Assembly: GCA_964403755.1 (NCBI GenBank)
Contig: CAYOHO010000001.1
Span: 1-26,432 of the forward strand
Length of the DNA: 26,432 bases
Source of the DNA: an uncultured Oscillospiraceae bacterium
GTDB lineage: Bacteria > Bacillota > Clostridia > Saccharofermentanales > UBA5734
Reading direction: 5' to 3'
In this document: one piece after another, positions 919 through 24,175 of the stretch
How the letters are laid out: each line of letters starts with the position of its first letter
Numbering within the stretch: the first letter of the stretch is position 1
The notes under the pieces: model-generated
The model's input: only the letters and a program-made list of their open reading frames with translations
The model's database searches: none
Told to the model about the DNA's origin: nothing
Position numbers and translations under genes: made by a program

Positions 919-2352
919 TCAGTGCGGCTGAACTGTCAGCGGCACCGGGTTGCGGTAGGTCTTGCCGCCAAGGTTCTTCACATGTTCGGCCTTGGCAGCA
1001 GCCAGCAGCTCCGGGTCCTTCAGAAGATCATAGGCGGTCATGGCAATCGCCTTGGCGGCTGACAGCATGCCTTTCATGGCAACGGACGAGAGGCCGGCCG
1101 ACACCCATTGCCAGGAATGGGCAGCAGTCCCATAAGGCATGCATCCGCCGATCATCTGAACGGTCGGCGCAAACCAGCTGGGATCGCCCACATCCGTTGA
1201 TGCGGTCATCAGCTTGGGCGGGAAGGTCAGCTCCACCAGTCCTTCCTGCACGGATCGGGCGCTGAGCGCATCGATCTCCTCCGGGCTGGCGGACGGGAAA
1301 TAGCGGCGGGTCTTCTGGCGGAGCGACTTGATGACCGATTCGCTCAAGGTGCTCCGGTACTGGGCGTAGTCTTCCCGTTCCGCGTCGGAGACCTTCATCG
1401 GGTAGATCCGCTGCATGTTGGCATACATGGCGCTGGCCAGGGTCCGGTTGACGATGAAGTTCGCGCAGGCGCCATCCCACTGGATATCGACCTCGGTCTC
1501 CGTCATCATGGCAGCGCCGCAGGCGATCTTGAAGACACGCTCGTAGATCTCCTCCATCTCCTCAAGGCCGGGGGCCCGCACGAAATAGTGCAGGCGCGAC
1601 GTTGCCTGGACGACATTGGCGGCGGTTCCGCCAGCATCGAGGAAGGCATAGTGGATTCGGGCGTCGTCGATGATGTGCTCGCGGAGAAAATTGACGCCGA
1701 CATTCATCAGCTCGGCGGCATCGAGCGCACTGCGGCCCATTTCCGGCGCGCCTCCGGCATGGGCGGCCGTCCCCTTGAACGTGAAGTAGAACTGGCTGAC
1801 CGCCAGGGTTGCCTGGTCCCAGAGGCCGTTCGTATCCCAGGGGTGCCAGGTCAGGTAGGCATCCTCCCCGCCGAAGACGCCGGCGCGGGCCATGAACGCC
1901 TTGCCATAGCCGCTTTCCTCTGCCGGGCAGCCGTAAAGCCGGATCGTTCCCGGATGGCCGCTCGCCTCGAGGTACTGCTTGATCCCGATTGCGCCGGCCA
2001 CGGCGCCGATGCCCAGCAGATGGTGGCCGCAGCCATGGCCGCTGCCGCCATCGGTCAGCGGCTTCTTCTCGTGCACGCCCGCTTCCTGGCTCAGGTTGGA
2101 CAAGGCGTCGAATTCCGCCAGGATGCCGATGACCGGCTTCCCTGAGCCGTACTCGGCCAGAAACGCATGCTCCATGCCGGCCAGGCCGGTCTGAAGCCGG
2201 AAGTTCTCGCTTTCCAGCAGCGCCTTGACGTTCCGGGTCGATTCGGGCAGGTCGAAGCGCAGCTCCGGGGTGTTCCAGATCTGCCTGCTCAGGCTGATGT
2301 ACGTTTCCCGGCTGTCCTCGATGGCTTGAATGATCTGGTCCTTGACGTCCAT
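919..2352 (-). CDS. M20D family amidohydrolase, p-aminobenzoyl-glutamate hydrolase subunit B (AbgB)-like
   Basis: 477 aa. Motifs AEFDAL, GHGCGHHLLG, GCPAEESG, TWHP, AAHAGGAPEMGRSALDAAELM, STDVGD and AHSWQ. A GAAAGGA ribosome-binding site lies upstream. Confidence 0.9.
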   Translation of the reverse strand: MDVKDQIIQAIEDSRETYISLSRQIWNTPELRFDLPESTRNVKALLESENFRLQTGLAGMEHAFLAEYGSGKPVIGILAEFDALSNLSQEAGVHEKKPLTDGGSGHGCGHHLLGIGAVAGAIGIKQYLEASGHPGTIRLYGCPAEESGYGKAFMARAGVFGGEDAYLTWHPWDTNGLWDQATLAVSQFYFTFKGTAAHAGGAPEMGRSALDAAELMNVGVNFLREHIIDDARIHYAFLDAGGTAANVVQATSRLHYFVRAPGLEEMEEIYERVFKIACGAAMMTETEVDIQWDGACANFIVNRTLASAMYANMQRIYPMKVSDAEREDYAQYRSTLSESVIKSLRQKTRRYFPSASPEEIDALSARSVQEGLVELTFPPKLMTASTDVGDPSWFAPTVQMIGGCMPYGTAAHSWQWVSAGLSSVAMKGMLSAAKAIAMTAYDLLKDPELLAAAKAEHVKNLGGKTYRNPVPLTVQPH

Positions 2353-2437
2353 GGCCGAATCCTTTCCCCCTTGGGCGGTGCGATGTCCTGCCGGTCCGGC
2401 AGCGACGGCGGCGGGCGGGCTTGTCCGACAGGCGCCT

Positions 2438-3364
2438 TCAGGACGGCCTGTCTGTCTCCCCCATCCTGGTCATCAGGCTTTTCCGGTACTTGACCGGTGA
2501 CTGTCCCATTTCACGCTTGAAGCATTCCGTAAAGTAGCTGCTGCTGCCAAATCCGACCTGCTGGGCAATATCCGAGATGCACAGGTCCGTTGACGACAGA
2601 TACATGAGGCTTTGCGAGATCCGGTACTGGATCAGGTACTCGAAAGGCGTCAGGTCGAGGACACGCCGGAACAGGCGGCAGCATTCGCTGCGGCTGATAT
2701 GGATCGAATCGGCAATGTCCTTGAGTGTCAGGGGTTCGGCATGGTTCGCCTGGATGCAGCTCACCATCTTGCGGATCTTGATCCGGTTCTCAAAGGAGAT
2801 CCGGCGGCACGTCTCGATCTTCTCCCGGTTGTGCTGGATCAGCAGCTGCCACATCTGGCTGATGCAGCATTTCTGGCCCAGCTCGTAGCCGAACTCATGG
2901 CGGCGCTCCAGGGCGATGAGCTGCTCGACGAGCGCACAGAAGTCGCGGTGCCAGCCGGACGGGCCGGTCAGCGGAATGAAGGCCAGGTCAACGGAATTGA
3001 GAACCGGGTAGACATAGTCAAGATAGATGCTGCTGTCCATCTGGCCATAGATCAGGCCGGGATGGAAATTGACGCTTATGTAGACGCTGTCGGTCTGGTC
3101 CGGAAGCAGAACCGCCTCGTGCAGGCAGCAGCTGTTGATGAACAGGGCCTGTCCCTGACCGATCAGGGCCTCTGTTCCGTCGCCCCGGAACAGGACACGG
3201 CCTTTCGTGACGTAGGAAATCTGGATGCCGTCATGCCAGTGGCGGATCGCATTGATCCGGGAGTCAGCCACCTGCTGCTCGTCGAATGATAGCGGGAAGC
3301 TGTCCGTCATGTATTCGGACGGTTCCCGCTGGTTGCTGTCGATGACGATTGGCCGCAGCTTCAT
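2438..3364 (-). CDS. AraC family transcriptional regulator (N-terminal cupin plus C-terminal double HTH)
   Basis: Start placed at MKLRPIV (3364, GGAG upstream) rather than the track start at 3430. Cupin motif HWHDGIQ and AraC HTH signature LKDIA...SRSECCRLF...ISDIAQQVGFGSSSYFTECFKREMGQSPVKYRK. Confidence 0.92.
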   Translation of the reverse strand: MKLRPIVIDSNQREPSEYMTDSFPLSFDEQQVADSRINAIRHWHDGIQISYVTKGRVLFRGDGTEALIGQGQALFINSCCLHEAVLLPDQTDSVYISVNFHPGLIYGQMDSSIYLDYVYPVLNSVDLAFIPLTGPSGWHRDFCALVEQLIALERRHEFGYELGQKCCISQMWQLLIQHNREKIETCRRISFENRIKIRKMVSCIQANHAEPLTLKDIADSIHISRSECCRLFRRVLDLTPFEYLIQYRISQSLMYLSSTDLCISDIAQQVGFGSSSYFTECFKREMGQSPVKYRKSLMTRMGETDRPS

Positions 3365-3407
3365 GGCACTCCGCTCCGTTCTGGCCGGAACATCCGGCCG
3401 GTTCCGT

Positions 3408-4685
3408 TCAGAACCGCACGAGCCGGTCAAGCCGGGCCATCTGGCAGCCCGGGTTCAGGCTGTTGACCCGCATCAGGAAATTGAGCTTTTCAATGCGTTC
3501 GCCGGAGCGCGGGCAGCCGTTCTTGAGGAACGGGACGCCCAGGCCGACTGCCAGATCCATGATGATGTCGTCGATCACGCCCCCGGAGCGTCCGGAGGGC
3601 GTCGAGAGCAGGCCCTGGCTCAAGGCATAGGCATGGGCGTCCAGCGCTTCGCTGATCGTGCCGATCTGGTTCGGCTTGAGGATGAACCCGTCGATCGCGT
3701 CCAGGGCATGTGCCTTTTCCAGTCGCTCCCGGCTGGACACCGTGAGGTCGTCGCCAATCAGGAGAGTCCGGTCAAGCTGCCGGTGGGCCAGGGCAAATCC
3801 TTCCCAGTCGTTTTCATCCAGCAGGTCTTCAATGAAGACAAAGTCGAACCGCCTGGAAAGGTCGCGATAGTAGCCGATCAGCTCGGCCGTCTGCCATTGC
3901 CGGCCGTTCAGGTAGTAGGTTCCGGAGGCGGCATCGTACATGGCGCTGGCCGCGCAGTCGAGCGCAAACGAGCATTTGCCGGCGTAGCCCTTGGCAGCGA
4001 GCGCCTCGGACAGGATATCCAGGACCACCGCGGGATCCTCGGAAGGGGCGACCCAGCCATAGGAGCGGCCGACTTTGGCTTCGGAGCCGGTTCGCCGCGC
4101 GATCACCCGGCCGACCTCGGCGAAGGTCCGGACGGCGATCTCGACCGCCTCCTCAATGGCGGCGGCCCGCCAGGGCACGACGATGAACTCGTTGATTGCC
4201 TGCCTGACCGCACCGTTGCTGCCGCCGTTGATCATATTGAACGAGGGTACCGGCACCTGGCGGATCGGGCCATCCGCCAGGTATTCATAGACCGTCCGGC
4301 CGGCGCTTCTGGCAGCAGCGCGCAGGATCGCGACCGACGTGCTGTAGATCGAGTTGCCGCCAAGCCGGTGCTTGTCGGGTGTGCCATCCAGGTCGATCAT
4401 GATCTGGTCAAGCCGGCGGAAGTTGGCTGCATCCTGGCCGACGAGCTCGGGTGCTATGATCCGGTTGACGACGTCGACCGCCTTGTGCACGCCCAGGCCG
4501 TCATACTCGTCCGGATTGCCGTCGCGCAGGATGAAGGACTCATAGGCGCCGACCGATTTGCCCGTCGGTGCGCTGCCGCGCCCGAGCGAGCCGTCATCGG
4601 TAACGACGTCAACCTCGACCATCGGCCGGCAAGCCATGTCGATCAGCTGCCGGGCGGACACCTGCCTGATGATGGATGGTTTCAT
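3408..4685 (-). CDS. Enolase-family protein, a divergent phosphopyruvate hydratase paralog with altered catalytic residues
   Basis: True start is MKPSIIRQ at 4685 (GGAAGGG upstream, ATGA overlap with the kinase stop); 425 aa. It aligns over its full length with enolase: LRDG, DLDGT, NMINGG, LDCAAS, IEDL, GDDL, LKPNQIG, GRSG, LKNG. Several catalytic motifs are substituted (see findings). Confidence 0.9.
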   Translation of the reverse strand: MKPSIIRQVSARQLIDMACRPMVEVDVVTDDGSLGRGSAPTGKSVGAYESFILRDGNPDEYDGLGVHKAVDVVNRIIAPELVGQDAANFRRLDQIMIDLDGTPDKHRLGGNSIYSTSVAILRAAARSAGRTVYEYLADGPIRQVPVPSFNMINGGSNGAVRQAINEFIVVPWRAAAIEEAVEIAVRTFAEVGRVIARRTGSEAKVGRSYGWVAPSEDPAVVLDILSEALAAKGYAGKCSFALDCAASAMYDAASGTYYLNGRQWQTAELIGYYRDLSRRFDFVFIEDLLDENDWEGFALAHRQLDRTLLIGDDLTVSSRERLEKAHALDAIDGFILKPNQIGTISEALDAHAYALSQGLLSTPSGRSGGVIDDIIMDLAVGLGVPFLKNGCPRSGERIEKLNFLMRVNSLNPGCQMARLDRLVRF

Positions 4686-6115
4686 GCCCTTCCTCCAGTC
4701 TCCGCTGCCGGCACATACAGGACGTTGAAGTCGCAGAGGTTCGTGCCGGTATTGCCGGTCAGGATTGTATCGCCGAGGGCGTCGAGGGACTCGAAGCAGG
4801 CATGCCCGCGCAGTCCGGCGCGCAGGTCGATGCCGCTTCCGGAGGCCCGGCGTGCGGTCTGTGAATCCGTGATGCCGCCGGCAACCGACGTGGTGCCGTC
4901 CGTGCCTTCGGAATCGATTGAAAGCAGGCAGGCGCCAGGCACACTGCCGGCGGTGAGCGCAAAGCTGGCAACCATCTCCTGTCCGGGCCCGCCATGTCCG
5001 GCAATCTGCTGATTGTCCAGGATGGTCGTCACAGCCTCGCCGGAGCTCAGCACCAGGCACGGCGCGGAGACCGGATTGCCGTAGGTCTGGATCTCCCGCG
5101 CCAGCGCAGCCATCACCGTGCCGATATCCTTGGCTTCACCGTCCAGGAACGAGCTGAGGATGACGGCCGGGATGCCCATCTCGCCGGCGATCTCCCTGGC
5201 GTAGCGGCAGGAGTCCGGCACGGTGTTGATCAGGTAATAGGTGTTGTCCGGGAAGGCCTTGGGCGTCTCACCCTCCGGGCCGGCGTTCATCAGGTAGTCG
5301 ACGACGGAACGGGGAAGGCGGTCCTCCACCTGGTATTCCCGGATGACGCGGCGGGCATCCTCGAGGGTCGTCTGGTCGGGCCCCATCGGCGTCGCGCGGT
5401 ATCTGGCGTAAGGGACACTGATATCGCCGGTCGGCGGCGAGGCAATCGCATCGCTGATGCCGAATCCGATCAGGGTGCCGCCGCGGCGCTGGATCCGCCT
5501 GGCCAGCATGCCCCCGTTCATCTGCGAGATATGGCGCCGGATGGCATTGATTTCAAAGATGTTGGCTCCGGACTTCAGCATGACATCGGTCGTGTCGATC
5601 TCGTCCTGCAGGGTGATGCCATCGATTGGCAGGCTCATCAGGGCCGAGCTGCCGCCGCTCATCACGACCAGGAACAGGTCATCCGGCCCGCTGGCGTCAA
5701 CGATATCGAGGATTTCCCGGCACGCCTTCATGCCGGTCTCGTTCGGCAAGGGGTGGCCGCCGACAAACACCCGCGTCTTGCGGAAGACATCCGCAGGCTC
5801 GGCAATCTTGACGATTGCGATGCCATCGGTCAGCCAGTCGCCCAGGATCTCGTCAATAGCCATTGCCATCGCATTGCAGGCCTTGCCGGCGCCGATCAGG
5901 TAGACATGGCGCCTGGCCGCCAGATCCCAGCTCCGGTCGCCGATGCGCAGGATCTGGCCGTCCCGGTGAACGATCTGCCGGATCCGCGCGTAGGCATTCA
6001 GGCGGACGAGCGTCCGCTCCACAAGGTCCAGCACGATGCGTCGGGATTCCGTATCCCCATGAGCCGTCAGGCGCTCCCGGTTCTTGATGATTGCAGCCAC
6101 GATATCCTCCCGCAT
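4682..6115 (-). CDS. MOFRL/DUF4147 family kinase (glycerate 2-kinase / TtuD-like), divergent
   Basis: Start placed at MREDIV (6115); 477 aa. Motifs IGAGKA, GGHPLP, SGGSSAL, GANIFEIN, SGEA, GTDG and TGNTGTNLCD match the glycerate-2-kinase fold. Confidence 0.88.
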   Translation of the reverse strand: MREDIVAAIIKNRERLTAHGDTESRRIVLDLVERTLVRLNAYARIRQIVHRDGQILRIGDRSWDLAARRHVYLIGAGKACNAMAMAIDEILGDWLTDGIAIVKIAEPADVFRKTRVFVGGHPLPNETGMKACREILDIVDASGPDDLFLVVMSGGSSALMSLPIDGITLQDEIDTTDVMLKSGANIFEINAIRRHISQMNGGMLARRIQRRGGTLIGFGISDAIASPPTGDISVPYARYRATPMGPDQTTLEDARRVIREYQVEDRLPRSVVDYLMNAGPEGETPKAFPDNTYYLINTVPDSCRYAREIAGEMGIPAVILSSFLDGEAKDIGTVMAALAREIQTYGNPVSAPCLVLSSGEAVTTILDNQQIAGHGGPGQEMVASFALTAGSVPGACLLSIDSEGTDGTTSVAGGITDSQTARRASGSGIDLRAGLRGHACFESLDALGDTILTGNTGTNLCDFNVLYVPAAETGGRA

Positions 6116-6211
6116 CTGCCTTTTCCCTGCCGGAACGGAGTCCGTCTGACAGGCAGGGCTGGCTGATCTGCGCAATATTGCCAGCTCCGGGCCGACAAGC
6201 CCTTCCTTATG

Positions 6212-6476: not shown

Positions 6477-7796
6477 ATGAGCCTCACAAGCCTGACTCCG
6501 ACGATTCAGTCATTGGCCTCCGATTTCCTGCCTGACACCATTGACTTCTGCCAGCGCCTCATCCGCAGACCTTCCTTGCCCGGATCCGAAAAGGATGTCG
6601 CCGACGCCTATCTGGCCGAGATGGAAAAGCTTGGCTATGATGAGGTCTTCCGCGATGCCTGGGGCAATGTCATCGGCCTCGTCCGCGGCACCGAGCCCGG
6701 CCCGACGATCATGTACAACGCGCATCTCGACCATGTCGACCCGGGCGACCTGTCTGCCTGGGAAGGCTACGATCCCTACGGCGCAGCCATCGACGAGGCG
6801 GAGATGGAAAACCAGGACCGCGACGCGCTGGAGCGGACCCGTGTGATCCACGGCCGCGCCGCCGCCGACACCAAGGCCGGCGGCGCCTGCCAGGTGTACA
6901 GCGGCGCCATGCTGCTCCGCATGCGGGCCCAGGGCATCCCGATCCGTGGCAACTATCTGTTCACGGCGGTGGTCCTGGAGGAGCCAGCCGAGCAGCTCGG
7001 CATGATCAAGCTGATTGACGAGACGCTCCCGGCCCGGGGCATCGGCTTCGACGGCGTCGTGTCCTGCGAGGCGACCGGCCTGAAGCTCTATCTCGGCCAC
7101 CGCGGGCGCGTGGAAATCAAGGTGACGACCCACGGCCTGTCTTCACACAGCAGTTCACCCTGGCTTGGCATCAACGCCGTCAACAAGGCGACCCGCTTCA
7201 TTGACCGGATCGAGGAAGTGGTCGCCCGGCAGGCGCGCGTCGACGCCGATGTCGGCCGGTCCAGCATCGCCCTGAAGTACATCGACTGCGAGCCGGGCTC
7301 GATGAGCATCGTTCCCGACCGCTGCAACATGATCTATGACCGTCGCTTCATACCCGGCGAGACGGCCGACGACTGCATCAGCCAGATCCAGGAGCTGATC
7401 GGCACCCTGGAGGCCGGCGATCCCCAGTTCAAGGCGACGGTCGCGGTCGCTGCCGAAACGCGCACGTCTTATACCGGACTGTCCCAGAAGGTTGCGAATG
7501 TCAAGCAGGCCTGGAAGATCAGCCCGGAAAATGTCTTTGTCTCACGGGCCGCAGATGCGCTGCAGGCACTCGGCCAGCCGGTCAAGTACGGCTACTGGGA
7601 TTTCGGGACCGACCTGGCTGTTGTCTGCGGCCGGGATGGGAAGCCTGCCATCGGCTATTCGCCGATGCAGGAGTTCTATTGTCACCGGCCGGTCGACAAG
7701 GTGCGGATCGACTACATGGAAAAGGCTCTGGCAGGCTATGCCATGATCCATTTCCATCTCGCCGGTCTCGCGCAGGACGATTTCCAGCTTTCCTGA
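6477..7796 (+). CDS. M20 family metallo-amidohydrolase, YgeY-like
   Basis: 439 aa. Metal-site motifs AHLDHV, GRAAADTK, LEEP, CEAT and CHRP. RGRVEIKVTTHGLSSHSSSP and DRRFIPGET resemble the YgeY/ArgE dimerisation domain, and EMEKLGYDEVFRDAWGNVIG resembles the YgeY N-terminus. Confidence 0.8.
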   Translation: MSLTSLTPTIQSLASDFLPDTIDFCQRLIRRPSLPGSEKDVADAYLAEMEKLGYDEVFRDAWGNVIGLVRGTEPGPTIMYNAHLDHVDPGDLSAWEGYDPYGAAIDEAEMENQDRDALERTRVIHGRAAADTKAGGACQVYSGAMLLRMRAQGIPIRGNYLFTAVVLEEPAEQLGMIKLIDETLPARGIGFDGVVSCEATGLKLYLGHRGRVEIKVTTHGLSSHSSSPWLGINAVNKATRFIDRIEEVVARQARVDADVGRSSIALKYIDCEPGSMSIVPDRCNMIYDRRFIPGETADDCISQIQELIGTLEAGDPQFKATVAVAAETRTSYTGLSQKVANVKQAWKISPENVFVSRAADALQALGQPVKYGYWDFGTDLAVVCGRDGKPAIGYSPMQEFYCHRPVDKVRIDYMEKALAGYAMIHFHLAGLAQDDFQLS

Positions 7797-7977: not shown

Positions 7978-9102
7978 ATGGATACCAGAATTGAATTCCT
8001 GTACTTGTCCGAGCCGGACACGATTGCCGCCGGCGTAAACGACCGGGCCGCCTGTGTCGATGTCTGCCAGGAAGTGTTCGCGCTTCTGGCCAAAGGCGAC
8101 TACCTGATGGGCGGACCGACACACAACAGCCATGGCATGGGGATCATCTTCCCCAGGCAGACACCCTTCCCGAACATGCCGGTCGCCGGTCCGGACCGCC
8201 GCTTCTTTGCCATGCCGGCATACCTGGGCGGCCGCTTCGACTGCTGCGGCAACAAGTGGTACGGCTCCAACGCCGCCAACAAGGAGAAGGGACTGCCGCG
8301 TTCAATCCTGACGGTCATGCTGAACGACAAGGACACCGGTGCACCCTTTTGCCTCATGTCAGCAAACCTGCTCAGTGCTGCCCGAACCGGAGCCGTCCCG
8401 GGTGTCGGAACCCGACATCTGGCACGCAAGGATGCAGCCGTCCTTTCCCTGATCGGCTGCGGACCGATCAACCAGGCCTGCATGGACCATATCCTGACGC
8501 AGGCTGCCGGCATCAGGAAGGTTATCTGCCATGCCATTCACCAGTCATCGATGGAGCGCATGGCCGCCTATGTGCGGGAAAAGTACCAGATCGAGGCCGA
8601 GGCAAATGCCGACCTCGAGTCAGCTGTCCGGGAATCCGACATCGTTTCGGTCGCGGCTTCCCGGGTGAAGCCGCTGAAGCTCGAGCATGCCTGGCTGAAG
8701 AAGGGCGCCCTGGTCCTGCTGTCAGGGCCCTCGCAGGGCGACGACGACTTCTGGCTGAAGAGCACGGTCGTCTACGACCACATCGGCCTTCACGAGGCCT
8801 ATGTCAGCGAGGCGATCGAGTCGGGCGACCGGGAAGGCTACTATCGCGGCGTCATCGGCGGGCCGATCTATGCCATGATCGATCAGGGCCGGCTGCCCGC
8901 TCTGCAGGACAGCCGCAGCAAGAGCATCGGCCAGATCATCCTTGGCGAGCAGGCAGGCCGCCAGTCGGATGATGAAACCATCATTTTCGTAGCCTGCGGC
9001 ATGGCGGTGTTCGATGTCGGCTGGGGCTACACCGTCTATCAGAACGCGCTGCGCAAGGGCATCGGCCAGAAGCTGCTGCTCTGGGACAAGCCAGCCCTCT
9101 AG
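7978..9102 (+). CDS. Ornithine cyclodeaminase / mu-crystallin family protein, similar to the subgroup annotated 'tyramine oxidase subunit B' (TynB)
   Basis: 374 aa with an AAGGAG ribosome-binding site. FLYLSEPD, DRRFFAMPAYLGG, KWYGSNAANKEKGLPRS, MSANLLSAARTGAVPGVG, Rossmann GCGPIN and C-terminal GMAVFDVGWG are all typical of this subgroup. Confidence 0.85.
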   Translation: MDTRIEFLYLSEPDTIAAGVNDRAACVDVCQEVFALLAKGDYLMGGPTHNSHGMGIIFPRQTPFPNMPVAGPDRRFFAMPAYLGGRFDCCGNKWYGSNAANKEKGLPRSILTVMLNDKDTGAPFCLMSANLLSAARTGAVPGVGTRHLARKDAAVLSLIGCGPINQACMDHILTQAAGIRKVICHAIHQSSMERMAAYVREKYQIEAEANADLESAVRESDIVSVAASRVKPLKLEHAWLKKGALVLLSGPSQGDDDFWLKSTVVYDHIGLHEAYVSEAIESGDREGYYRGVIGGPIYAMIDQGRLPALQDSRSKSIGQIILGEQAGRQSDDETIIFVACGMAVFDVGWGYTVYQNALRKGIGQKLLLWDKPAL

Positions 9103-9217: not shown

Positions 9218-10090
9218 ATGGCTGTAAAGATCGAAGAAAAAGAGATGGACGAGAAGATCAGTTCTGACTATAGTTTTGTCAGGGACTGGAAATTCCACCT
9301 GATCATCCTGATCGCCTGCATGATTTCCGACAAGATCGGCGCGATCGTCATCCCGGTCTGGGGATCGGTTCGGGTCACGCTGCTTCCGCTGCTGTATTCG
9401 ATGGCCATTGTCACGGCCCTCTACCTGTTCAAGCCCTTCAAGTGGGTCGGCACCAAGAACAACGCTGCCGGCGCCCTGATGATGGGCCTCTCGACGATCC
9501 TGCTGATGGCCAAGCTGGGCTTCACCGTCGGCGCCAACCTGAAGGTCATCTGGGAATCCAGCATTCCGCTGCTGTTCTCAAACCTGGCTGACTCCATGAC
9601 CTGCATCCTGGCCCTGCCGCTGGCCCTGGCGCTGGGCCTGAAGCGGGAGTCGATCGGCCTGACGTTCGCCAACTCCCGCGAGGCGGGCATTGCGATCATC
9701 GAGAACCGCTATGGCGACGGCGCCGAGCTGCGTGGCGTCATCGGCATGTACATCACCGGCACCGTCTTCGGCACGATCACCGTCGGCATCCTGTCCAGCG
9801 TCTTCACGACGACCGGCCTGTTCAGCCTCGAAGCCGTCGCCATGGCAGCCGGCATCGGCTCCGCATCCATGTCCACCGCCGCCATCGGCACGATGGTCTC
9901 GATGTTCCCGGCAATCGAGCAGAAGATCTCCGCCTTTGTCATCGCCTCCAACCTGATCTCCAGCGTCCTTGCCATCTATGTCGGCCTGTTCATCAACCTG
10001 CCGATCACGGAATGGATGTACAAGCGGCTTTCGCCGCTCCTTGGCAAGAAGGCGAAGGCTTCAACAGCACCGGCTAAGGCTGAAGGATAA
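9218..10090 (+). CDS. DUF3100 family membrane protein, large subunit of a putative two-subunit secondary transporter
   Basis: Start placed at MAVKIEE (9218, GAAGGAG upstream); 290 aa, polytopic. Motifs DWKFH, LLPLLY, LGLKRESIG, SRE, RGVIGMYITGTVFG and AMAAGIGSAS. Confidence 0.72.
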   Translation: MAVKIEEKEMDEKISSDYSFVRDWKFHLIILIACMISDKIGAIVIPVWGSVRVTLLPLLYSMAIVTALYLFKPFKWVGTKNNAAGALMMGLSTILLMAKLGFTVGANLKVIWESSIPLLFSNLADSMTCILALPLALALGLKRESIGLTFANSREAGIAIIENRYGDGAELRGVIGMYITGTVFGTITVGILSSVFTTTGLFSLEAVAMAAGIGSASMSTAAIGTMVSMFPAIEQKISAFVIASNLISSVLAIYVGLFINLPITEWMYKRLSPLLGKKAKASTAPAKAEG

Positions 10091-10103
10091 GGAGTGCGGA
10101 AAA

Positions 10104-10565
10104 ATGAGTGTAAAGGCGTTTGCAAAAAATGAAATCCGGGACTGGTTCGCCGGTCTGGCCATCCTGGCCATGATGGGATGCGTCGGCAACTACGTTGGCT
10201 ACAAGGTGCCGATCCTCGACTCGCTTCCGGGCATGCTCATCCTGTTCGTGATCTCGATCGCCGGCCTGTTCGTCACCAAGCTCATTCCCGGCAAAATGCC
10301 GGCCATGCTGTATGTCTCCGTAGTCGCGATCCTTGTGTCGATGCCCTATACGCCCATCGCGGCCATCCTGACGCCCTACGTCAACAAGATCAACCTGATG
10401 GCGATCGTCACGCCGATCCTCGCCTATGCCGGCGTCATTGTCGGCCGTGACTGGGATGCCTTCCGCAAGCTCAGCTGGAAGGCAGTTGTCGTCGGCATCG
10501 TGGTCATCTTCGGCGCCTTCTTCTGGGGCGCGCTGATCGCCGAAGTGCTCATCAAGGTCACCTGA
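10104..10565 (+). CDS. Small membrane protein, probable partner subunit of the DUF3100 protein
   Basis: Start placed at MSVKAF (10104, AAGGAG upstream); 153 aa with about 5 hydrophobic segments. Motif TPILAYAG...D...F.KLSWK.VVV is typical of DUF3100-adjacent proteins. Confidence 0.72.
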   Translation: MSVKAFAKNEIRDWFAGLAILAMMGCVGNYVGYKVPILDSLPGMLILFVISIAGLFVTKLIPGKMPAMLYVSVVAILVSMPYTPIAAILTPYVNKINLMAIVTPILAYAGVIVGRDWDAFRKLSWKAVVVGIVVIFGAFFWGALIAEVLIKVT

Positions 10566-10579
10566 AGGAGGAATCCCGG

Positions 10580-11677
10580 ATGGACAACGGACTATTCCCC
10601 ATTGCCGACGTGGCCGGGACACCCCGTGAAATCGGCCTGCAGCATGGCAGCCTGTTCACAAGGCAGATCGGGAACAGCATCCGGTGCTACCGCGACATCT
10701 TCCATGACTACGCCGGTCTGGAGTGGGAGCGGGCCAAGAAGCTTTCCCGGCGCTACATCGACATCATCGGCGACTACAATCCGGACTACCTGGAGGAGAT
10801 CCGGGGTGTCGCCGAGGGCGCCCGGATGGATTTCGAAGACATCCTGGCACTCAATTCCCGCAGCGAGCTGATGTTTGCCGGCAATCTGCTGGAGCCGCTG
10901 GAAGGCGGATGCACGTCGATCGGCATCACGGCCGAGGCCAGTGCGAACGGCGATGCGATCATTTCCCATAACTGGGACTGGAAGGCGGTCCAGCGGCAGG
11001 CGATGGTCCGGATGCGGATCACGCAGAAGAACGGCCGGCCATCCATGCTGCTGGTCACCGAGGCCGGCATCATCGGCAAGACCGGCTACAACGCCGCCGG
11101 CATCGCGCTGTTCCTGAACGCCTTGTCGACGGATGCGGCCCCGGAAGGCCTGCCGCTGCACATCGCGATGCGCGGGATCCTCGACAGCGAGTCCCTCGTC
11201 CAGGCCCTGCGGGCAGCGACCCGCATGAAGCTGGGCTGCTGCGCGAACTTCCTGATCGGCGCCCGCAATGGCGAGATCGTCGACATCGAGATCGAGAACG
11301 AGGACTTCGATGTCCTCTATCCGGAGAACGGGATCATCGTGCACACCAACCATTTCATCAGCCCGCGCCTGCCGCGCAGCCCGCGGACCGACACCATGAA
11401 ATACAAGGTGCCGGACACGTTTATCCGCCTGTGCCGGGCCAGAAAGCTGCTGGCCGGACAGGCCGGCCGGGTCACGCCGGAGTTCGTGCGCGGCGTGCTG
11501 CAGGACCATGTGGAGGCGCCCAACTGCATCTGCCGCCACGACGATCCGGCCCAGCCGGAAGGCCTGCGCATGTGCTCGGTGTTCTCCATGCAGGTCAACC
11601 TGACCCGCGGCGAGGTGCTGTTCGCAAAAGGCAACCCCTGTGAAACACCCTATGAACCCGTGGCACTGAACTTCTGA
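10580..11677 (+). CDS. C45 family peptidase (autoproteolytic Ntn-hydrolase / acyltransferase, IAT/Tan-like)
   Basis: 365 aa with an AGGAGG ribosome-binding site. G-T-P-x-E-I-G-x-Q-H-G near the N-terminus, EEIRGVAEGA, LALNSRSE, cleavage-site GG/CTS, HNWDW and HTNHF. Confidence 0.9.
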   Translation: MDNGLFPIADVAGTPREIGLQHGSLFTRQIGNSIRCYRDIFHDYAGLEWERAKKLSRRYIDIIGDYNPDYLEEIRGVAEGARMDFEDILALNSRSELMFAGNLLEPLEGGCTSIGITAEASANGDAIISHNWDWKAVQRQAMVRMRITQKNGRPSMLLVTEAGIIGKTGYNAAGIALFLNALSTDAAPEGLPLHIAMRGILDSESLVQALRAATRMKLGCCANFLIGARNGEIVDIEIENEDFDVLYPENGIIVHTNHFISPRLPRSPRTDTMKYKVPDTFIRLCRARKLLAGQAGRVTPEFVRGVLQDHVEAPNCICRHDDPAQPEGLRMCSVFSMQVNLTRGEVLFAKGNPCETPYEPVALNF

Positions 11678-13106: not shown

Positions 13107-14552
13107 CTAAAGCGTCCTGACGCGGATGTGCTTGATGTTGAGGTACTCGTAGAGGCCTTCCGAGCCGTGCTCGTGGCCGAAGCCGCTGGCCTTCCAGCCG
13201 CCGTAGGGGGCATTGATGACGCCGGCGTCGACATTGTTGATCGCGACGTTTCCGGCCTCGATGGCCAGCGACAGGCGGCGGGCCAGGCTGAGGCTCTCGG
13301 TGAAAACGATGGCGGCGAGCCCGTAGACGGTATCGTTGGCCAGGCCGATGACCTCGTCGATGCTGTCGAAGGGCATGACGCCGACAACCGGGCCGAATGT
13401 CTCCTCCTGCATGACCTTCATCGAATGGTCGACGTCGCGCAGGACGGTCGGCTCGAAGAAGTTGCCCTTCGCGAAGCGCTCACCCGCCGGCTTTCGGCCG
13501 CCGCAGCAGATCTTCGCGCCCTTGGCCAGCGCGTCGGCGATGTGGTCCTCGGCGGTGTGCACGCCCTTGGCGGTGCACATCGGCCCGAGGTCGACCTTTT
13601 CGGTGAGGCCGTCGCCGAAGGTAAGCTTCTGCGTCTGGGCGGCGAACTTCTCGAGGAAGGCCTCGTAGATCGGCCGGGCGACGTAGATGCGGTTGACGGC
13701 GATGCAGATCTGGCCCATGTTGCGGAAGCTGCGGCGCACGGCGCCGGCGACGGCCGCGTCGAGCTTCGCGTCTTCGCAGACGATCATCGGCAGGCTGCCG
13801 CCGAGCTCGAGCGACAGGCGCTTGAGGCTCTGGCTCGCCTTGGCCATGATCTGGCGGCCGACCGCCGTGGAGCCGGTGAAGGCGATCTTGCGCACGTCCG
13901 GATGCTCGGCCAGGCGGTCGCCGACGGTGGCGCCGGGACCCGTGATGAGGTTGAGCGCACCGGCCGGAACGCCGGCGGCCAGGACGGCGCGCACGAAGGC
14001 GATGGCGCTGAGCGGCGTCTCCGACGGAACCTTGAGCACAACGGTGCAGCCGGCAGCGAGCGCGCCGCCGACCTTCCACGCCAGCAGCTCGATCGGATAG
14101 TTCCAGGGTGAGATGCAGGCGGCGACGCCGACCGGCTGATAGACGACGTGGCTCTCGATGTCGTTGCCGTCCTCATTGGGGATGATGCGGCCGAAGACGC
14201 GCTCGCCCTCCTCGGCATAATAGGCCAGGATCTGGGCGCCCTTGCGGACTTCACCGGTGGCCTCGGCCAGGGGCTTGCCTTGCTCGCGCGTCATCAGGCC
14301 GGCGATCTCCGCCTGGTTCTCGAGCACGAGCCGGGAGGCCTCGCGCAGGATGCGGCCGCGCTGGAACGGGGTCGTCCTCGACCAGGCCGGGAAGGCCGCC
14401 TTCGCGGCCGCGACGGCGGCATCGACTTCTTCGGCGCCGCCCTTCGGGACGGTGGCGAAGACCTCATTGTCGACGGGGTTGCGGACCTCGATCACCGCGC
14501 CGGACGCGGCGTCGGTCCACTGGCCGTTGATGAGCATCTTTTCCTGGATCAT
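13107..14552 (-). CDS. NAD(P)-dependent aldehyde dehydrogenase (succinate-semialdehyde dehydrogenase-like subgroup); substrate unknown
   Basis: 481 aa with an AAGGAG ribosome-binding site. Motifs PWNYP, KVPSETP, FTGSTAVG, catalytic Glu in LELGG, catalytic Cys in GQICIA, and EETFGP. Confidence 0.92.
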   Translation of the reverse strand: MIQEKMLINGQWTDAASGAVIEVRNPVDNEVFATVPKGGAEEVDAAVAAAKAAFPAWSRTTPFQRGRILREASRLVLENQAEIAGLMTREQGKPLAEATGEVRKGAQILAYYAEEGERVFGRIIPNEDGNDIESHVVYQPVGVAACISPWNYPIELLAWKVGGALAAGCTVVLKVPSETPLSAIAFVRAVLAAGVPAGALNLITGPGATVGDRLAEHPDVRKIAFTGSTAVGRQIMAKASQSLKRLSLELGGSLPMIVCEDAKLDAAVAGAVRRSFRNMGQICIAVNRIYVARPIYEAFLEKFAAQTQKLTFGDGLTEKVDLGPMCTAKGVHTAEDHIADALAKGAKICCGGRKPAGERFAKGNFFEPTVLRDVDHSMKVMQEETFGPVVGVMPFDSIDEVIGLANDTVYGLAAIVFTESLSLARRLSLAIEAGNVAINNVDAGVINAPYGGWKASGFGHEHGSEGLYEYLNIKHIRVRTL

Positions 14553-14625
14553 GGTGGCTTTCTCCTTAGCATGGGCCGGTCGGTGTCAGCGGGCGCCGGC
14601 CGGGCGGTTTTACGGGCGATCGGTT

Positions 14626-15786: not shown

Positions 15787-15789
15787 GGC

Positions 15790-19368: not shown

Positions 19369-19401
19369 ATGTGCGCTCCTGACTGCCTGCGGCCGGCCGC
19401 T

Positions 19402-20244: not shown

Positions 20245-20266
20245 GGTCGTCCTCCTCATGGATGGG

Positions 20267-20301
20267 CGGCCGCCGGGCAGGGAACGCCGGCCCGGCGGCC
20301 G
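20267..20301. other. Intercistronic stem-loop (12-bp perfect stem) between the BMP gene and udp
   Basis: cggccgccgggc (20267-20278) and gcccggcggccg (20290-20301), with an 11-nt loop. Confidence 0.6.
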
Positions 20302-20334
20302 TCTCTTGTTATGCGTTGTGGTTCGGGGCAGGCT

Positions 20335-20379
20335 GCCATGAAGCTTTGCTTCAGGCCGCCATGAAGCTTCGCTTCAGGC
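20335..20379. repeat. Tandem 22-bp direct repeat (period 23), each copy a small hairpin
   Basis: gccatgaagctttgcttcaggc (20335-20356) and gccatgaagcttcgcttcaggc (20358-20379) differ at one base. Each has the core TGAAGC-TTY-GCTTCA. Confidence 0.9.
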
Positions 20380-20384
20380 GGGGA

Positions 20385-21551: not shown

Positions 21552-21755
21552 GGGTGTGCTCCTTCTTTGTTTTTGTCCTTGGCGCTTTGGCCTTGGTTCT
21601 CACAGAGGGACTTTTCGGGGCGGATTGCTTGCGCGGGTCCGTTGCTCTGGCGTCGGGTGCGGTTTCATTTCTGGCGATGGATGAGGCTCTGGCAGTTCAT
21701 CGGGTCATCGGGGAAGTGCTTCCGTGGTTACAGCTGTGCGGGGCGGGCTTGGGCA

Positions 21756-22220: not shown

Positions 22221-22234
22221 TCATTCCTGCAGCA

Positions 22235-23282: not shown

Positions 23283-23293
23283 GGATGCTCCTT

Positions 23294-24148: not shown

Positions 24149-24175
24149 CCTGTCTCCTCCCATCACCCTGGACGG

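What the first reader, a model, noticed from the sequence alone, without database searches (positions are those of the whole stretch)
4682..6115. Glycerate-2-kinase-like protein with remodelled conserved motifs, coupled to the odd enolase
Seen: an ATGA overlap (4682-4685) joins the kinase stop to the enolase start. Relative to the recalled MOFRL consensus, GGRNQE becomes GGPGQE (about 4976-4993), RKHLSxxKGG becomes RRHISQMNGG, SDVxGD...IASGP becomes SDAIAS...ATPMGP, GGET becomes SGEA, and DTDG becomes DSEG. The nucleotide-binding GAGKA and SGGSSA motifs remain. Inference: both enzymes of what would be a glycerate to 2-PG to PEP module have shifted at conserved positions, which points to a co-evolved kinase/lyase pair for a glycerate analogue with a different C3 group.
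Basis: partly seen in the sequence, partly recalled or inferred. Interest (0 to 1): 0.72.

Follow-up and report, generated by a model that had tools for sequence, protein, structure and literature searches.

The report
Unassigned kinase–enolase-like pair, mislabelled
This gene encodes a relative of glycerate 2-kinase that, in every related genome examined, sits directly upstream of an enolase look-alike lacking enolase's acid catalyst; together they look like a widespread, unstudied two-step route that turns some glycerate-like acid (not glycerate) into phosphoenolpyruvate, while databases label them as ordinary glycolytic-type enzymes.

Summary
Window 6115..4682 (-) encodes a 477-aa DUF4147+MOFRL protein whose stop overlaps (ATGA) the start of a 425-aa enolase paralogue, and every quoted motif is at the stated coordinates.

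Not all the motif changes are special. Pro in place of TM1585 Arg325 occurs in 50 of 139 MOFRL representatives, including the P. horikoshii enzyme. Changes specific to this clade are KGG→NGG, an 8-residue insertion, N→G, and the loss of E118, D125, E161 and R347.

The enolase partner keeps the metal ligands, Lys345, Lys396, Arg374 and Ser39. It invariably replaces Glu211, Gly212, His373, His159 and Gln167, which are 73/73 conserved in ordinary enolases.

The pairing is obligate:
- 63 of 63 genome loci have it.
- The reverse search agrees.
- A natural fusion protein exists.
- Pairwise divergence of the two proteins correlates at r = 0.87.

An OCD/mu-crystallin-family dehydrogenase lies within 10 kb in 34 of 37 loci. 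Variable feeder genes include LarA-type racemase, TRAP transporter, GDH, M20/C45 hydrolases and pyrimidine/purine ring-cleavage genes.

Best reading: ATP-dependent 2-phosphorylation of a non-glycerate 2-hydroxy acid, then enolase-type elimination giving PEP. The leading candidate, unproven, is 2,3-diaminopropionate → isoserine → PEP. No paper describing the module was found.

The parts
4682..6115 (-). Kinase-like gene (KIN), 477 aa, DUF4147 + MOFRL; member of a discrete clade of class-II glycerate-kinase homologues
   Evidence: Pfam PF13660 9e-56 and PF05161 6e-22. PDB 1x3l 1.5e-67 and 2b8n 2.3e-59. NCBIfam glycerate 2-kinase equivalogs score 158 and 123 bits against cut-offs 550 and 670. Relatives 65-72% identical in at least 8 phyla.
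4682..4685 (-). ATGA stop/start overlap coupling the kinase to the enolase paralogue; GGAGGA ribosome-binding site at about 4692-4697
3408..4685 (-). Enolase-subgroup paralogue (ENO'), 425 aa. Keeps the two-metal site and Lys345/Lys396/Arg374/Ser39; lacks Glu211, Gly212, His373, His159, Gln167
   Evidence: Pfam Enolase_N and Enolase_C. TIGR01060 337.8 bits against cut-off 300. Alignment to 2pa6 and 2ptw. Comparison of 62 family members with 73 canonical enolases.
2438..3364 (-). AraC-family regulator (cupin sensor + HTH), 308 aa from ATG 3364
   Evidence: Pfam. Start refined. Same position in L085. AraC homologue next to the module in 13/68 loci.
919..2352 (-). M20 amidohydrolase (TIGR01891 subfamily), last gene of the - strand unit
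   Evidence: conserved in L085
6116..6476 (.). 361-bp divergent intergenic region between the kinase operon and the M20-OCD operon (presumed promoters/operators)
   Evidence: No sigma-70 consensus, terminator or Rfam element was found.
6477..7796 (+). M20 hydrolase related to YgeY (a beta-ureido/acyl-amino hydrolase), first gene of the divergent operon
   Evidence: NF009555 YgeY family 274.8 bits (cut-off 321). 30% identical to E. coli YgeY. 55-59% identical orthologues lie next to OCD in L008, L011, L023, L025, L041 and L047.
7978..9102 (+). OCD/mu-crystallin-family NAD(P) dehydrogenase, the third constant partner
   Evidence: PF02423 1.6e-56. NF004848 464 bits against cut-off 362. Closest solved relatives are SbnB (4m54) and archaeal alanine dehydrogenase (1omo). 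Within 10 kb of the kinase in 34/37 loci.
9218..10090 (+). DUF3100 membrane protein (putative transporter)
   Evidence: PF11299 7.7e-66; start refined; same order in L085, L020, L030, L035, L042
10104..10565 (+). Small (153 aa) membrane protein that always follows DUF3100
10580..11677 (+). C45-family autoproteolytic acyltransferase/hydrolase
   Evidence: PF03417; NF040521 255 bits; conserved in L085, L005, L042
11748..12974 (+). M20 ArgE/DapE-family deacylase, end of the conserved 11-gene block
   Evidence: block boundary from L085

Best explanation
Window 6115..4682 (-) and 4685..3408 (-) encode an obligate two-enzyme module that works like glycerate 2-kinase plus enolase but is not that pair.

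Proposed steps:
- Step 1 (inferred from homology): the MOFRL kinase uses ATP to phosphorylate the 2-hydroxyl of a small 2-hydroxy-carboxylate other than D-glycerate.
- Step 2 (inferred from retained and lost residues): the enolase paralogue binds the 2-phospho-carboxylate through the retained two-Mg2+/Ser39/Arg374/Lys396 site. Lys345 removes the C2 proton. A C3 substituent then leaves that does not need enolase's Glu211/His373 acid machinery. The product is phosphoenolpyruvate, or a substituted PEP, which enters central metabolism and repays the ATP.
- The OCD-family dehydrogenase, often with glutamate dehydrogenase, converts the corresponding 2-amino acid into the 2-oxo/2-hydroxy acid.
- LarA-type racemases with TRAP transporters supply the hydroxy acid directly.
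- M20, C45 and agmatinase-family hydrolases, and dihydropyrimidine dehydrogenase / dihydropyrimidinase / SsnA-like ring-cleavage genes, release the amino acid from acylated, carbamoylated or heterocyclic precursors. In this window the feeders are three M20 hydrolases, a C45 hydrolase and a DUF3100 transporter under an AraC regulator.

Most likely substrate, in my judgement (about 0.25-0.3 on its own): 2,3-diaminopropionate → (OCD) isoserine → (kinase) 2-phospho-isoserine → (enolase paralogue) PEP + NH4+. This would be a PLP-independent alternative to diaminopropionate ammonia-lyase. The confidence given below is for the general mechanism, not for this substrate.
For: Shown here:
- Fold and family of both proteins.
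- Retention in the enolase partner of D246/E295/D320, K345, K396, R374, S39 and E168, with invariant loss of E211, G212, H373, H159 and Q167, each 73/73 conserved in canonical enolases.
- The kinase keeps GxGKA (Lys47), GHP, SGGxSA, RxHxS, GGPxQE, D..GTDG and TGxTGTN. It has clade-specific changes and an 8-residue insertion beside the SD...GP substrate loop.
- Pairing: 63/63 loci. Reciprocal check: 5/5 enolase-paralogue loci with upstream DNA have the kinase, against 0/73 canonical enolase loci. Natural 894-aa fusion P0159. Pairwise-identity correlation r = 0.87.
- OCD within 10 kb in 34/37 loci. In two sampled loci with full flanks and no OCD, L043 and L055, the layout is LarA-TRAP-kinase-enolase and GDH is absent too, which fits OCD/GDH acting as a feeder.

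For the nitrogen / C3 candidate:
- L009 has NCS1-PreT-PreA (58% to E. coli PreA)-dihydropyrimidinase (TIGR02033 489 > 393) placed between OCD-YgeY-family M20 (NF009555 325.5 > 321) and kinase-enolase.
- L023 has PreT directly after the enolase paralogue.
- L049 and L086 carry SsnA-like, HyuA-like and PreA/PreT-like genes in the cluster.
- L075 has a YgeX homologue (50%) next to OCD.
- E. coli YgeY makes 2,3-diaminopropionate from albizziin in the reductive urate pathway (10.1101/2025.05.19.654654).
- The OCD partner's closest solved relative is the diaminopropionate-forming SbnB.
- Regulators and carriers typical of amines occur in some loci: MocR, agcS family, SNF family.
Against: - No activity was measured; the substrate is inferred only from context.
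- The commonest context (GntR, RpiR, LarA-type racemase, TRAP transporter whose binding protein is closest to sugar-acid binders such as the 4pdd entry) looks like sugar-acid or hydroxy-acid use. It would require free isoserine in the environment, for which I found no evidence.
- True PreTA plus dihydropyrimidinase acting on uracil would give beta-alanine, which cannot feed this pair. A 5-N- or 5-O-substituted pyrimidine has to be assumed.
- The enolase partner gains no acidic residue to hold an ammonium group. It loses E211 and E377.
- L075 has both YgeX and the module, so the two are not simply alternatives.
- The proposed OCD reaction (2-amino to 2-hydroxy) has no characterised precedent that I know of.
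- TIGR01060 still scores above its cut-off.
Confidence: 0.6

Rival explanations
1. The pair acts on a larger 2,3-dihydroxy acid, for example L-threonate/D-erythronate, 2,3-dihydroxybutyrate or a tartrate isomer. The steps would be 2-phosphorylation, then dehydration with Tyr209 or Glu166 replacing Glu211 as the acid, giving a substituted PEP and then a 2-keto-3-deoxy acid. OCD/GDH would reductively aminate that acid. The LarA homologue would be a 2-epimerase.
For: - The TRAP binding protein's nearest solved relatives include sugar-acid binders (4pdd, 4pdh, 4p9k, 7bbr; the ligand identities are from memory).
- LarA homologues, RpiR and GntR/FCD regulators dominate the commonest context.
- Several substitutions enlarge the pocket: H373G, E211S, Q167N in the enolase partner, and N→G beside the Pro in GGPGQE in the kinase.
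Against: - It does not explain the recurrent nitrogen-releasing feeders: YgeY-family and other M20 hydrolases, C45, agmatinase family, dihydropyrimidinase/PreTA, SsnA-like, carbamoyltransferase + carbamate kinase, agcS/SNF carriers, MocR.
- Hydroxide still needs an acid catalyst, and the one used by all enolases is gone.
- OCD is co-transcribed with the feeders rather than downstream of the enolase partner.
Confidence: 0.18
2. They are simply a second glycerate 2-kinase and a second enolase (glycerate → 2-PG → PEP), as current annotation says.
For: - TIGR01060 'eno' 337.8 bits against cut-off 300.
- Database names are 'phosphopyruvate hydratase' and 'glycerate kinase type-2 family'.
- GGPNQE also occurs in P. 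horikoshii PH0495.
- Glycerate is a known hub fed by serine, ureides and sugar acids. D-2-hydroxyacid dehydrogenases occur in 7 loci.
Against: - E211, H373, H159, Q167 and G212 are 73/73 invariant in sampled canonical enolases and are replaced in 60-62 of 62 family members. From memory (Poyner/Reed enolase mutant work), E211Q enolase loses about 10^5-fold activity.
- The kinase scores 158 bits against a cut-off of 550 for the glycerate-kinase equivalog.
- The family forms a separate identity class: 57-62%, against at most 41% to canonical enolases.
- About 76% mean identity across phyla points to a separate, tightly constrained function.
Confidence: 0.08
3. A 'dehydroxylation' trio. The kinase phosphorylates a beta-hydroxyl of an N-substituted or cyclic amino acid (for example a 3-hydroxy-imino acid). 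The enolase-like enzyme removes the alpha-proton and expels phosphate. The OCD-family enzyme reduces the resulting imine.
For: - It gives each of the three constant genes a role.
- Phosphate needs no acid catalyst, which fits the loss of E211.
- OCD relatives are imine reductases (Pyr2C reductase 6t3e, iminosuccinate reductase 6rqa).
- The Burkholderia copies sit beside hydroxyproline-type genes.
Against: - The site that holds a C2 phosphate and the second Mg2+ (Ser39, Arg374) is retained.
- The only characterised MOFRL kinases I know of are glycerate 2-kinases, which phosphorylate a 2-hydroxyl.
- LarA-type enzymes and D-2-hydroxyacid dehydrogenases in the clusters point to 2-hydroxy acids.
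- L043 and L055 lack OCD within 10 kb.
Confidence: 0.07
4. 3-Sulfolactate (from cysteate) → 2-phospho-3-sulfolactate → PEP + sulfite. This is the reverse of the ComA reaction, performed by an enolase-fold enzyme.
For: - Sulfite needs no acid catalyst.
- Both sulfolactate enantiomers occur in nature, which would give a racemase a role.
- TRAP and MocR (TauR-like) systems are typical of sulfonates (general knowledge).
- OCD/GDH could deaminate cysteate.
Against: - No sulfite reductase or exporter, or any other sulfonate gene, recurs in 68 dereplicated loci.
- Glu168 is retained next to C3 and would repel a sulfonate.
- It does not explain the pyrimidine/purine ring-cleavage genes.
Confidence: 0.04

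Closest known systems
Class-II (MOFRL) glycerate 2-kinase, e.g. T. maritima TM1585 (PDB 2b8n) and P. horikoshii PH0495 (1x3l), followed by enolase
   Same: - Same two folds, same order of reactions (2-O-phosphorylation, then alpha-proton abstraction and beta-elimination), and same likely product class (enol phosphate).
- The kinase keeps the Lys47 motif GxGKA and most nucleotide/phosphate motifs.
   Different: - The kinase belongs to a separate clade: at most 47% identical to the next 50%-identity clusters and about 35% to typical members. It has NGG for KGG, an 8-residue insertion, and loss of E118/D125/E161/R347.
- The partner lacks enolase's acid catalyst and three other invariant pocket residues.
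- Genuine glycerate kinases are not obligately fused or adjacent to an enolase; none of 73 canonical enolase loci had a MOFRL gene.
Reductive urate / 2,8-dioxopurine pathway ending in YgeY and YgeX (2,3-diaminopropionate ammonia-lyase) (10.1101/2025.05.19.654654; 10.1101/2025.04.24.650524)
   Same: - Shares the upstream gene types in some loci: YgeY-family M20, HyuA-like dihydropyrimidinase, SsnA-like amidohydrolase, PreA/UacX-like reductase, carbamoyltransferase + carbamate kinase.
- Would likewise carry a C3 unit into central metabolism.
   Different: - The described pathway ends with PLP-dependent YgeX giving pyruvate. Neither paper mentions an OCD-, MOFRL- or enolase-type gene.
- Here the end would be PEP, via an ATP-dependent route.
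- Most loci with the module lack the ring-cleavage genes.
SbnA/SbnB (staphyloferrin B 2,3-diaminopropionate synthesis)
   Same: The OCD partner's best solved relative is SbnB (4m54, 8e-32; TIGR03944 172 bits). From memory (Kobylarz et al. 2014), SbnB is an NAD-dependent OCD-family enzyme handling a diaminopropionate-containing substrate.
   Different: - The score is well below the SbnB cut-off (172 against 327).
- There is no SbnA partner.
- The context is catabolic (transporters and regulators), not a siderophore cluster.
Methylaspartate ammonia-lyase (enolase-superfamily C-N lyase)
   Same: It is the known precedent within the superfamily for alpha-proton abstraction followed by loss of ammonia without an enolase-type acid (general knowledge).
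   Different: - It belongs to a different subgroup and its substrate has no phosphate.
- The paralogue here is a true enolase-subgroup member; its match to MAAL_N is only 23.6 bits.
Serine → hydroxypyruvate → glycerate → 2-PG pathway of T. maritima (Yang et al. 2008, J Bacteriol 190:1773; cited in PMC3750489; text not held, recalled from memory)
   Same: Same logic of amino acid → 2-oxo acid → 2-hydroxy acid → 2-phospho acid. The module here may be the analogue for a beta-substituted alanine.
   Different: That pathway uses an aminotransferase, a D-2-hydroxyacid dehydrogenase, a genuine glycerate kinase and the housekeeping enolase.

Membership tests
Class-II glycerate 2-kinase (MOFRL family, EC 2.7.1.165) | DUF4147 N-terminal domain plus MOFRL C-terminal domain; fold of 2b8n/1x3l | tested here: met
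   PF13660 189 bits and PF05161 78 bits; 1x3l 1.5e-67 over residues 25-466
Class-II glycerate 2-kinase (MOFRL family, EC 2.7.1.165) | Lys47 of TM1585 (GxGKA), reported essential (Yang 2008; from memory, paper not held) | tested here: met
   GAGKA at residues 75-79 aligns with AVGKA of 2b8n (K59 with the 12-residue tag = K47)
Class-II glycerate 2-kinase (MOFRL family, EC 2.7.1.165) | Arg325 of TM1585 (GGRNQE), reported essential (same source, from memory) | tested here: not met
   Pro377 (GGPGQE). However, Pro is found in 50/139 MOFRL representatives and in PH0495, so Arg is not a family-wide requirement.
Class-II glycerate 2-kinase (MOFRL family, EC 2.7.1.165) | PRATT motif D-X(0,2)-G-X(0,1)-D-[GP]-X(4)-[APS]-[ACDGST] (PMC2063504) | tested here: met
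   DSEGTDGTTSVAG, residues 401-413
Class-II glycerate 2-kinase (MOFRL family, EC 2.7.1.165) | Score above NCBIfam equivalog cut-offs for glycerate 2-kinase | tested here: not met
   NF041176 157.6 bits against 550; NF040791 122.8 bits against 670
Class-II glycerate 2-kinase (MOFRL family, EC 2.7.1.165) | ATP-dependent formation of 2-phospho-D-glycerate from D-glycerate | not testable with these tools
   Requires an enzyme assay
Enolase / phosphopyruvate hydratase (EC 4.2.1.11) | Enolase_N + Enolase_C domains; metal ligands D246, E295, D320; base K345; K396; R374; S39 (yeast numbering) | tested here: met
   all conserved in at least 59/62 family members
Enolase / phosphopyruvate hydratase (EC 4.2.1.11) | General acid Glu211 for loss of the C3 hydroxyl | tested here: not met
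   Ser208 in the window. Family S 61/62; canonical E 73/73.
Enolase / phosphopyruvate hydratase (EC 4.2.1.11) | His373, His159, Gln167 of the substrate pocket | tested here: not met
   - His373: G 60/60 in the family; canonical H 73/73.
- His159: Y 55 / N 7 in the family (window N157); canonical H 73/73.
- Gln167: N 62/62 in the family; canonical Q 73/73.
Enolase / phosphopyruvate hydratase (EC 4.2.1.11) | Score above TIGR01060 equivalog cut-off | tested here: met
   337.8 bits against 300. Given the rows above, I read this as a cut-off that lets the paralogue through.
Enolase superfamily (mechanistic superfamily) | Mg2+-stabilised enolate formed by abstraction of the proton alpha to a carboxylate | tested here: inconclusive
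   The residues required are all present; the activity was not measured.
OCD/mu-crystallin family (partner gene 7978-9102) | PF02423 domain; NCBIfam NF004848 subfamily | tested here: met
   192 bits; 464 bits against cut-off 362
YgeY family hydrolase (partner gene 6477-7796) | Score above NF009555 / TIGR03526 cut-offs | tested here: not met
   274.8 bits against 321 in the window. The M20 in the equivalent place in L009 does pass, 325.5 against 321.

The most novel reading that the evidence does not exclude
The module is a previously undescribed, ATP-dependent, PLP-independent route that converts 2,3-diaminopropionate (via isoserine and 2-phospho-isoserine) into PEP + ammonia. That would make the partner the first enolase-subgroup enzyme to break a C-N bond. 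It would also provide an alternative last stage for anaerobic purine/pyrimidine ring degradation in gut and soil bacteria.
Probability: 0.25. Interest if true: 0.85.

Novelty: new variant of a known kind. Interest (0 to 1): 0.7.

Why it matters
- **Misannotation.** More than a thousand database proteins from gut Clostridia, Synergistota, Coriobacteriia, spirochaetes, Planctomycetota, Burkholderia and actinobacteria are labelled 'phosphopyruvate hydratase' and 'glycerate kinase'. The enolase-like one cannot be a normal enolase, so metabolic models that count it as a second enolase or glycerate-kinase step are probably wrong.
- **A ready target for enzymology.** The pair is obligate, sometimes fused, unusually conserved (about 76% mean identity across phyla for the kinase) and evidently spread by transfer as a unit. 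It has clear, cheap assays.
- **If the nitrogen-linked reading holds**, it adds a missing outlet to the newly described anaerobic urate/pyrimidine pathways of the gut microbiome and extends enolase-subgroup chemistry beyond dehydration.

Tried and rejected
- **Literature.** All ten full-text searches found no description of the module. Terms tried: MOFRL/enolase/OCD; DUF4147; LarA + glycerate kinase; 'tyramine oxidase subunit B'; isoserine; phosphosulfolactate; diaminopropionate + cyclodeaminase; YgeY/YgeW. The key mutagenesis paper on TM1585 is not held.
- **Ligand clue from RNA.** An Rfam scan of the window and five loci found no riboswitch upstream of the module. Promoter/terminator and repeat scans of the 361-bp divergent region found nothing beyond chance.
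- **Source organism.** Exact look-ups of the window's kinase and enolase paralogue found no record, so the organism stays unknown. The closest syntenic contig is the metagenomic L085 (kinase 84% identical).
- **Adjacent nucleoside-type cluster as a functional partner.** Considered and rejected. The same cluster occurs in Clostridium sp. D5-like contigs without the module within 10 kb, and the module's locus there lacks it.
- **Burkholderia loci.** The simple MocR-kinase-enolase-OCD operon was examined in the hope of a clean clue. Its neighbours are hydroxyproline-type genes and sugar transport, which look unrelated.
- **Uracil/beta-alanine as the source substrate.** Rejected on chemistry: beta-alanine has no 2-hydroxyl and no C3 leaving group once deaminated.
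- **Malate/aspartate.** Rejected for the same kind of reason: no leaving group on C3.
- **Structure prediction.** Not run. Fold membership is already unambiguous from sequence, and the tools return no coordinates for inspecting the pocket.

Full report
**1. Observation.**

On the - strand an ORF runs from ATG 6115 to TGA 4684..4682 (477 aa). The next ORF starts at ATG 4685..4683, so the four bases ATGA are shared, and a GGAGGA ribosome-binding site lies 6 nt upstream.

**2. What the two proteins are.**

- The upstream protein has the DUF4147 and MOFRL domains. It aligns over its full length with the two solved class-II glycerate kinases, PH0495 (1x3l, 1.5e-67) and TM1585 (2b8n, 2.3e-59).
- It falls far below NCBI's equivalog cut-offs for glycerate 2-kinase: 158 bits against 550, and 123 against 670.
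- The downstream protein has both enolase domains and scores 337.8 bits on TIGR01060, just above the cut-off of 300. Its best solved relatives are genuine enolases at about 37-40% identity.

**3. How unusual the kinase motifs are.**

I compared the window protein with three sets: 83 non-identical subfamily members, the two solved kinases, and 139 full-length representatives of MOFRL clusters at 50% identity.

- The position of TM1585 Arg325 is Arg in 86 of the 139 and Pro in 50. TM1585 Arg325 and Lys47 were reported essential by Yang et al. 2008; this is from memory, because the paper is not held.
- PH0495, treated as a class-II glycerate kinase (PMC2063504), has GGPNQE. The R→P change is therefore not diagnostic.
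- DSEG differs from DTDG only at X positions of the published family motif, which the protein still matches.
- Specific to this clade (roughly 10 of the 139 representatives) are:
  - NGG for KGG (8/139);
  - an 8-residue insertion with conserved Pro/Thr/Asp/Tyr residues in the SD...GP loop (10/139);
  - Gly after the Pro (4/139);
  - invariant loss of E118, D125, E161 and R347.
- The GxGKA (Lys47), GHP, SGGxSA, RxHxS and TGxTGTN motifs are kept. My reading is that it is still a kinase, with a rebuilt acceptor site.

**4. The enolase partner.**

A metagenome scan with the partner returned 7 relatives at 46-62% identity and 73 ordinary enolases at 35-41%, with nothing in between. I aligned 62 family members against those 73.

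| Yeast residue | Canonical enolases | This family |
|---|---|---|
| Glu211 | E 73/73 | S 61/62 |
| Gly212 | G 73/73 | Y 62/62 |
| His373 | H 73/73 | G 60/60 |
| His159 | H 73/73 | Y 55 / N 7 (window: N) |
| Gln167 | Q 73/73 | N 62/62 |
| Glu of SGETED | E 73/73 | G 60/60 |
| N-terminal DSRGNP | S, G, N each 73/73 | DCxCRP |

Retained in the family are D246, E295 and D320 (metal ligands), K345 (the base), K396, R374, S39 and E168.

From established enolase enzymology (memory): Lys345 removes the C2 proton and Glu211 protonates the leaving hydroxyl, and E211Q is nearly dead for dehydration but still exchanges the proton. The partner can therefore plausibly bind a 2-phospho-carboxylate on two Mg2+ ions and enolise it. 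It lacks the apparatus that expels hydroxide, so it should not be called phosphopyruvate hydratase.

**5. Coupling of the two genes.**

- Among 68 dereplicated genome loci carrying a kinase at least 60% identical to the window's, all 63 with at least 1.4 kb of downstream DNA have the enolase paralogue directly downstream on the same strand. The gaps are 0-244 nt.
- In the reverse direction, all five enolase-paralogue loci with upstream sequence have the kinase, and none of the 73 canonical enolase loci does.
- P0159 is a natural 894-aa fusion: kinase part 68% identical, enolase part 62% identical.
- A more distant kinase clade (46% identity, P0164) is also followed by an enolase-like gene.
- A still more distant MOFRL protein is fused to another enolase-like domain that also lacks E211 and H373 (P0200).
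- Pairwise identities of kinase and partner across loci correlate at r = 0.87 (kinase-OCD 0.77). Mean kinase identity is 0.76 across Bacillota, Synergistota, Chloroflexota, Spirochaetota, Planctomycetota, Actinomycetota, Atribacterota and Burkholderiaceae. The genes travel and diverge as a unit.

**6. Neighbourhood.**

An OCD/mu-crystallin-family gene lies within 10 kb in 34 of 37 loci with full flanks. It scores 464 bits on NF004848, and its closest solved relatives are SbnB and archaeal alanine dehydrogenase.

Variable companions, out of the same 37 loci:

| Companion | Loci (of 37) |
|---|---|
| RpiR regulator | 25 |
| GntR/FCD regulator | 19 |
| TRAP transporter | 16-17 |
| Glutamate dehydrogenase | 15 |
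| LarA-type nickel-pincer 2-hydroxyacid racemase homologue | 13, plus 3 of 'group 22' |
| AraC regulator | 6 |
| M20 hydrolases | 6-7 |

- D-2-hydroxyacid dehydrogenase occurs in 7 of the 68 dereplicated loci.
- In two sampled loci with full flanks and no OCD within 10 kb, L043 and L055, the layout is LarA-TRAP-kinase-enolase and GDH is absent too. This suggests OCD (with GDH) is a feeder from an amino acid, and LarA/TRAP a feeder from a hydroxy acid.
- In this window, and in the syntenic contig L085 (kinase 84% identical), the block has 11 genes: M20, AraC, enolase paralogue and kinase on one strand; YgeY-like M20, OCD, DUF3100, a small membrane protein, C45 hydrolase and M20 on the other.

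**7. Nitrogen-heterocycle link.**

Four unrelated lineages have ring-reduction and ring-opening genes inside the cluster.

- L009 carries NCS1 permease, PreT (45%) and PreA (58% to E. coli), and a dihydropyrimidinase that passes TIGR02033 (489 > 393). These genes sit between OCD plus a YgeY-family M20 (325.5 > 321) and the kinase-enolase pair.
- L023 has PreT (46%) 21 nt after the enolase paralogue.
- L049 has M20, HyuA-like, SsnA-like (420 against 444), NCS1, PreA-like and OCD opposite kinase-enolase-GDH.
- L086 has OCD, M20, HyuA-like and PreT-like.

Other loci add related genes:
- ATP-dependent hydantoinase A/B, a carbamoyltransferase and carbamate kinase (L036, L063);
- an agmatinase-family gene (L053);
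- a molybdenum hydroxylase (L066);
- a YgeX homologue (L075);
- agcS- and SNF-family amino-acid carriers;
- a MocR regulator in Burkholderia.

In the recently described reductive urate pathway, HyuA, YgeW and YgeY lead to 2,3-diaminopropionate, which YgeX converts to pyruvate. Neither of the two preprints I checked mentions an OCD, MOFRL or enolase-type gene.

**8. Mechanism proposed.**

*Shown here:* family membership; which catalytic residues are kept and which are lost; obligate pairing and fusion; constant OCD; variable feeders.

*Inferred:*
- (a) The kinase phosphorylates the 2-hydroxyl of a small 2-hydroxy acid other than D-glycerate.
- (b) The partner enolises the 2-phospho acid and expels a C3 group that needs no Glu211-type acid, giving PEP or a substituted PEP.
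- (c) OCD ± GDH convert the matching 2-amino acid into the 2-oxo/2-hydroxy acid.
- (d) The remaining genes deliver the precursors.

I put about 0.6 on (a)-(b) together.

The candidate that gives every constant gene a job and uses the C3 skeleton of the parent enzymes is this route: 2,3-diaminopropionate → isoserine (OCD) → 2-phospho-isoserine (kinase) → PEP + NH4+ (partner). I put about 0.25-0.3 on it.

Points that do not fit:
- The commonest context looks like hydroxy-acid or sugar-acid use, and the TRAP binding protein is closest to sugar-acid binders.
- I found no evidence that free isoserine is a common metabolite.
- Authentic PreTA acting on uracil would give beta-alanine, which is useless to this pair.
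- The partner gains no acidic residue to hold an ammonium group.
- L075 has both YgeX and the module.

The main alternative is a larger 2,3-dihydroxy acid (tetronates, dihydroxybutyrate, tartrate), with Tyr209 or Glu166 acting as the acid.

**9. Comparison with known systems.**

The module works like glycerate 2-kinase plus enolase.
- The kinase is a member of the MOFRL family, but there is no evidence that it belongs to the glycerate-kinase equivalog.
- The partner is a member of the enolase subgroup. It fails the defining catalytic-residue test for EC 4.2.1.11, even though it passes the TIGR01060 score.
- Public names are 'phosphopyruvate hydratase' or 'enolase C-terminal domain-like protein', 'glycerate kinase type-2 family / DUF4147 protein', and 'tyramine oxidase subunit B' for the OCD partner. 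I could find no paper behind the last name.

**10. Verdict.**

The finding is real and non-trivial. Part of the motif argument was based on an over-narrow consensus, and the substrate is still open. I rate it a new variant of a known kind (a kinase + enolase-type lyase module with a new, unassigned specificity). It is of clear interest for enzymology and for gut-microbiome annotation.

Noticed in passing
window 13107-26361 (- strand): A second conserved cluster: aldehyde dehydrogenase, phosphopentomutase-like metalloenzyme, two permeases, ABC ATPase, PNP/UDP-type phosphorylase, Bmp/PnrA binding protein, glyoxalase-fold protein, two SDRs, amidohydrolase, and an Fe-alcohol dehydrogenase cut by the contig end. 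The same set, plus transaldolase/FSA, transketolase and DeoR, occurs in Clostridium sp. D5-like contigs (ATPase 69% identical), away from the kinase-enolase module. It looks like an uncharacterised nucleoside-type utilisation cluster.
   Followed up: partly
P0200 (908 aa) and L088 (kinase P0164, 604-1998; enolase-like gene 1988-3295): Other, more distant MOFRL proteins are also fused to, or followed by, enolase-like proteins. In P0200, read by eye from the sequence rather than from an alignment, the E211 and H373 positions appear to be Ile and Leu. More than one kinase/enolase-like pairing of this sort therefore exists.
   Followed up: partly
window 7978-9102 and homologues (P0136, P0156): NCBI and UniRef name this OCD-family subfamily 'tyramine oxidase subunit B' (NF004848). 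No paper in the library uses that name, and nothing in the gene context suggests tyramine.
   Followed up: partly
window 4626-4640 (enolase paralogue residues 16-20, DMACR) and family alignment: The family replaces the invariant N-terminal enolase motif DSRGNP with DCxCRP: two conserved cysteines, and the Arg shifted by two positions. The window itself has DMACRP. The kinase family also has three conserved cysteines absent from PH0495 and TM1585 (C80, C162, C461). The meaning is unknown.
   Followed up: no
window 9218-10565; L020, L030, L035, L042, L085: The DUF3100 membrane protein is always followed by a roughly 150-aa membrane protein, a likely two-component transporter of unknown substrate. 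It replaces the TRAP system in M20-rich versions of the cluster.
   Followed up: no
L041, L047, L025, L053 (e.g. L047 18422-19708): A 'nickel pincer cofactor-dependent isomerase, group 22' (NF052515, 512 bits) sits in M20-M20-isomerase-OCD arrangements. This is a second, uncharacterised LarA-like enzyme type tied to the module.
   Followed up: no
whole window: The window appears to be an entire 26,432-bp metagenomic contig of about 60-72% G+C. The organism was not identified. The closest syntenic relative is another metagenomic contig (L085). Long antisense ORFs over the real genes (e.g. 3225-5012 +, 4994-6166 +) are high-GC shadows that recur as 'clusters' in the comparative data.
   Followed up: partly
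L003 14054-14221: M-box (Mg2+) riboswitch upstream of an MgtE gene next to the module in the Clostridium sp. D5-like locus; unrelated to the finding.
   Followed up: no
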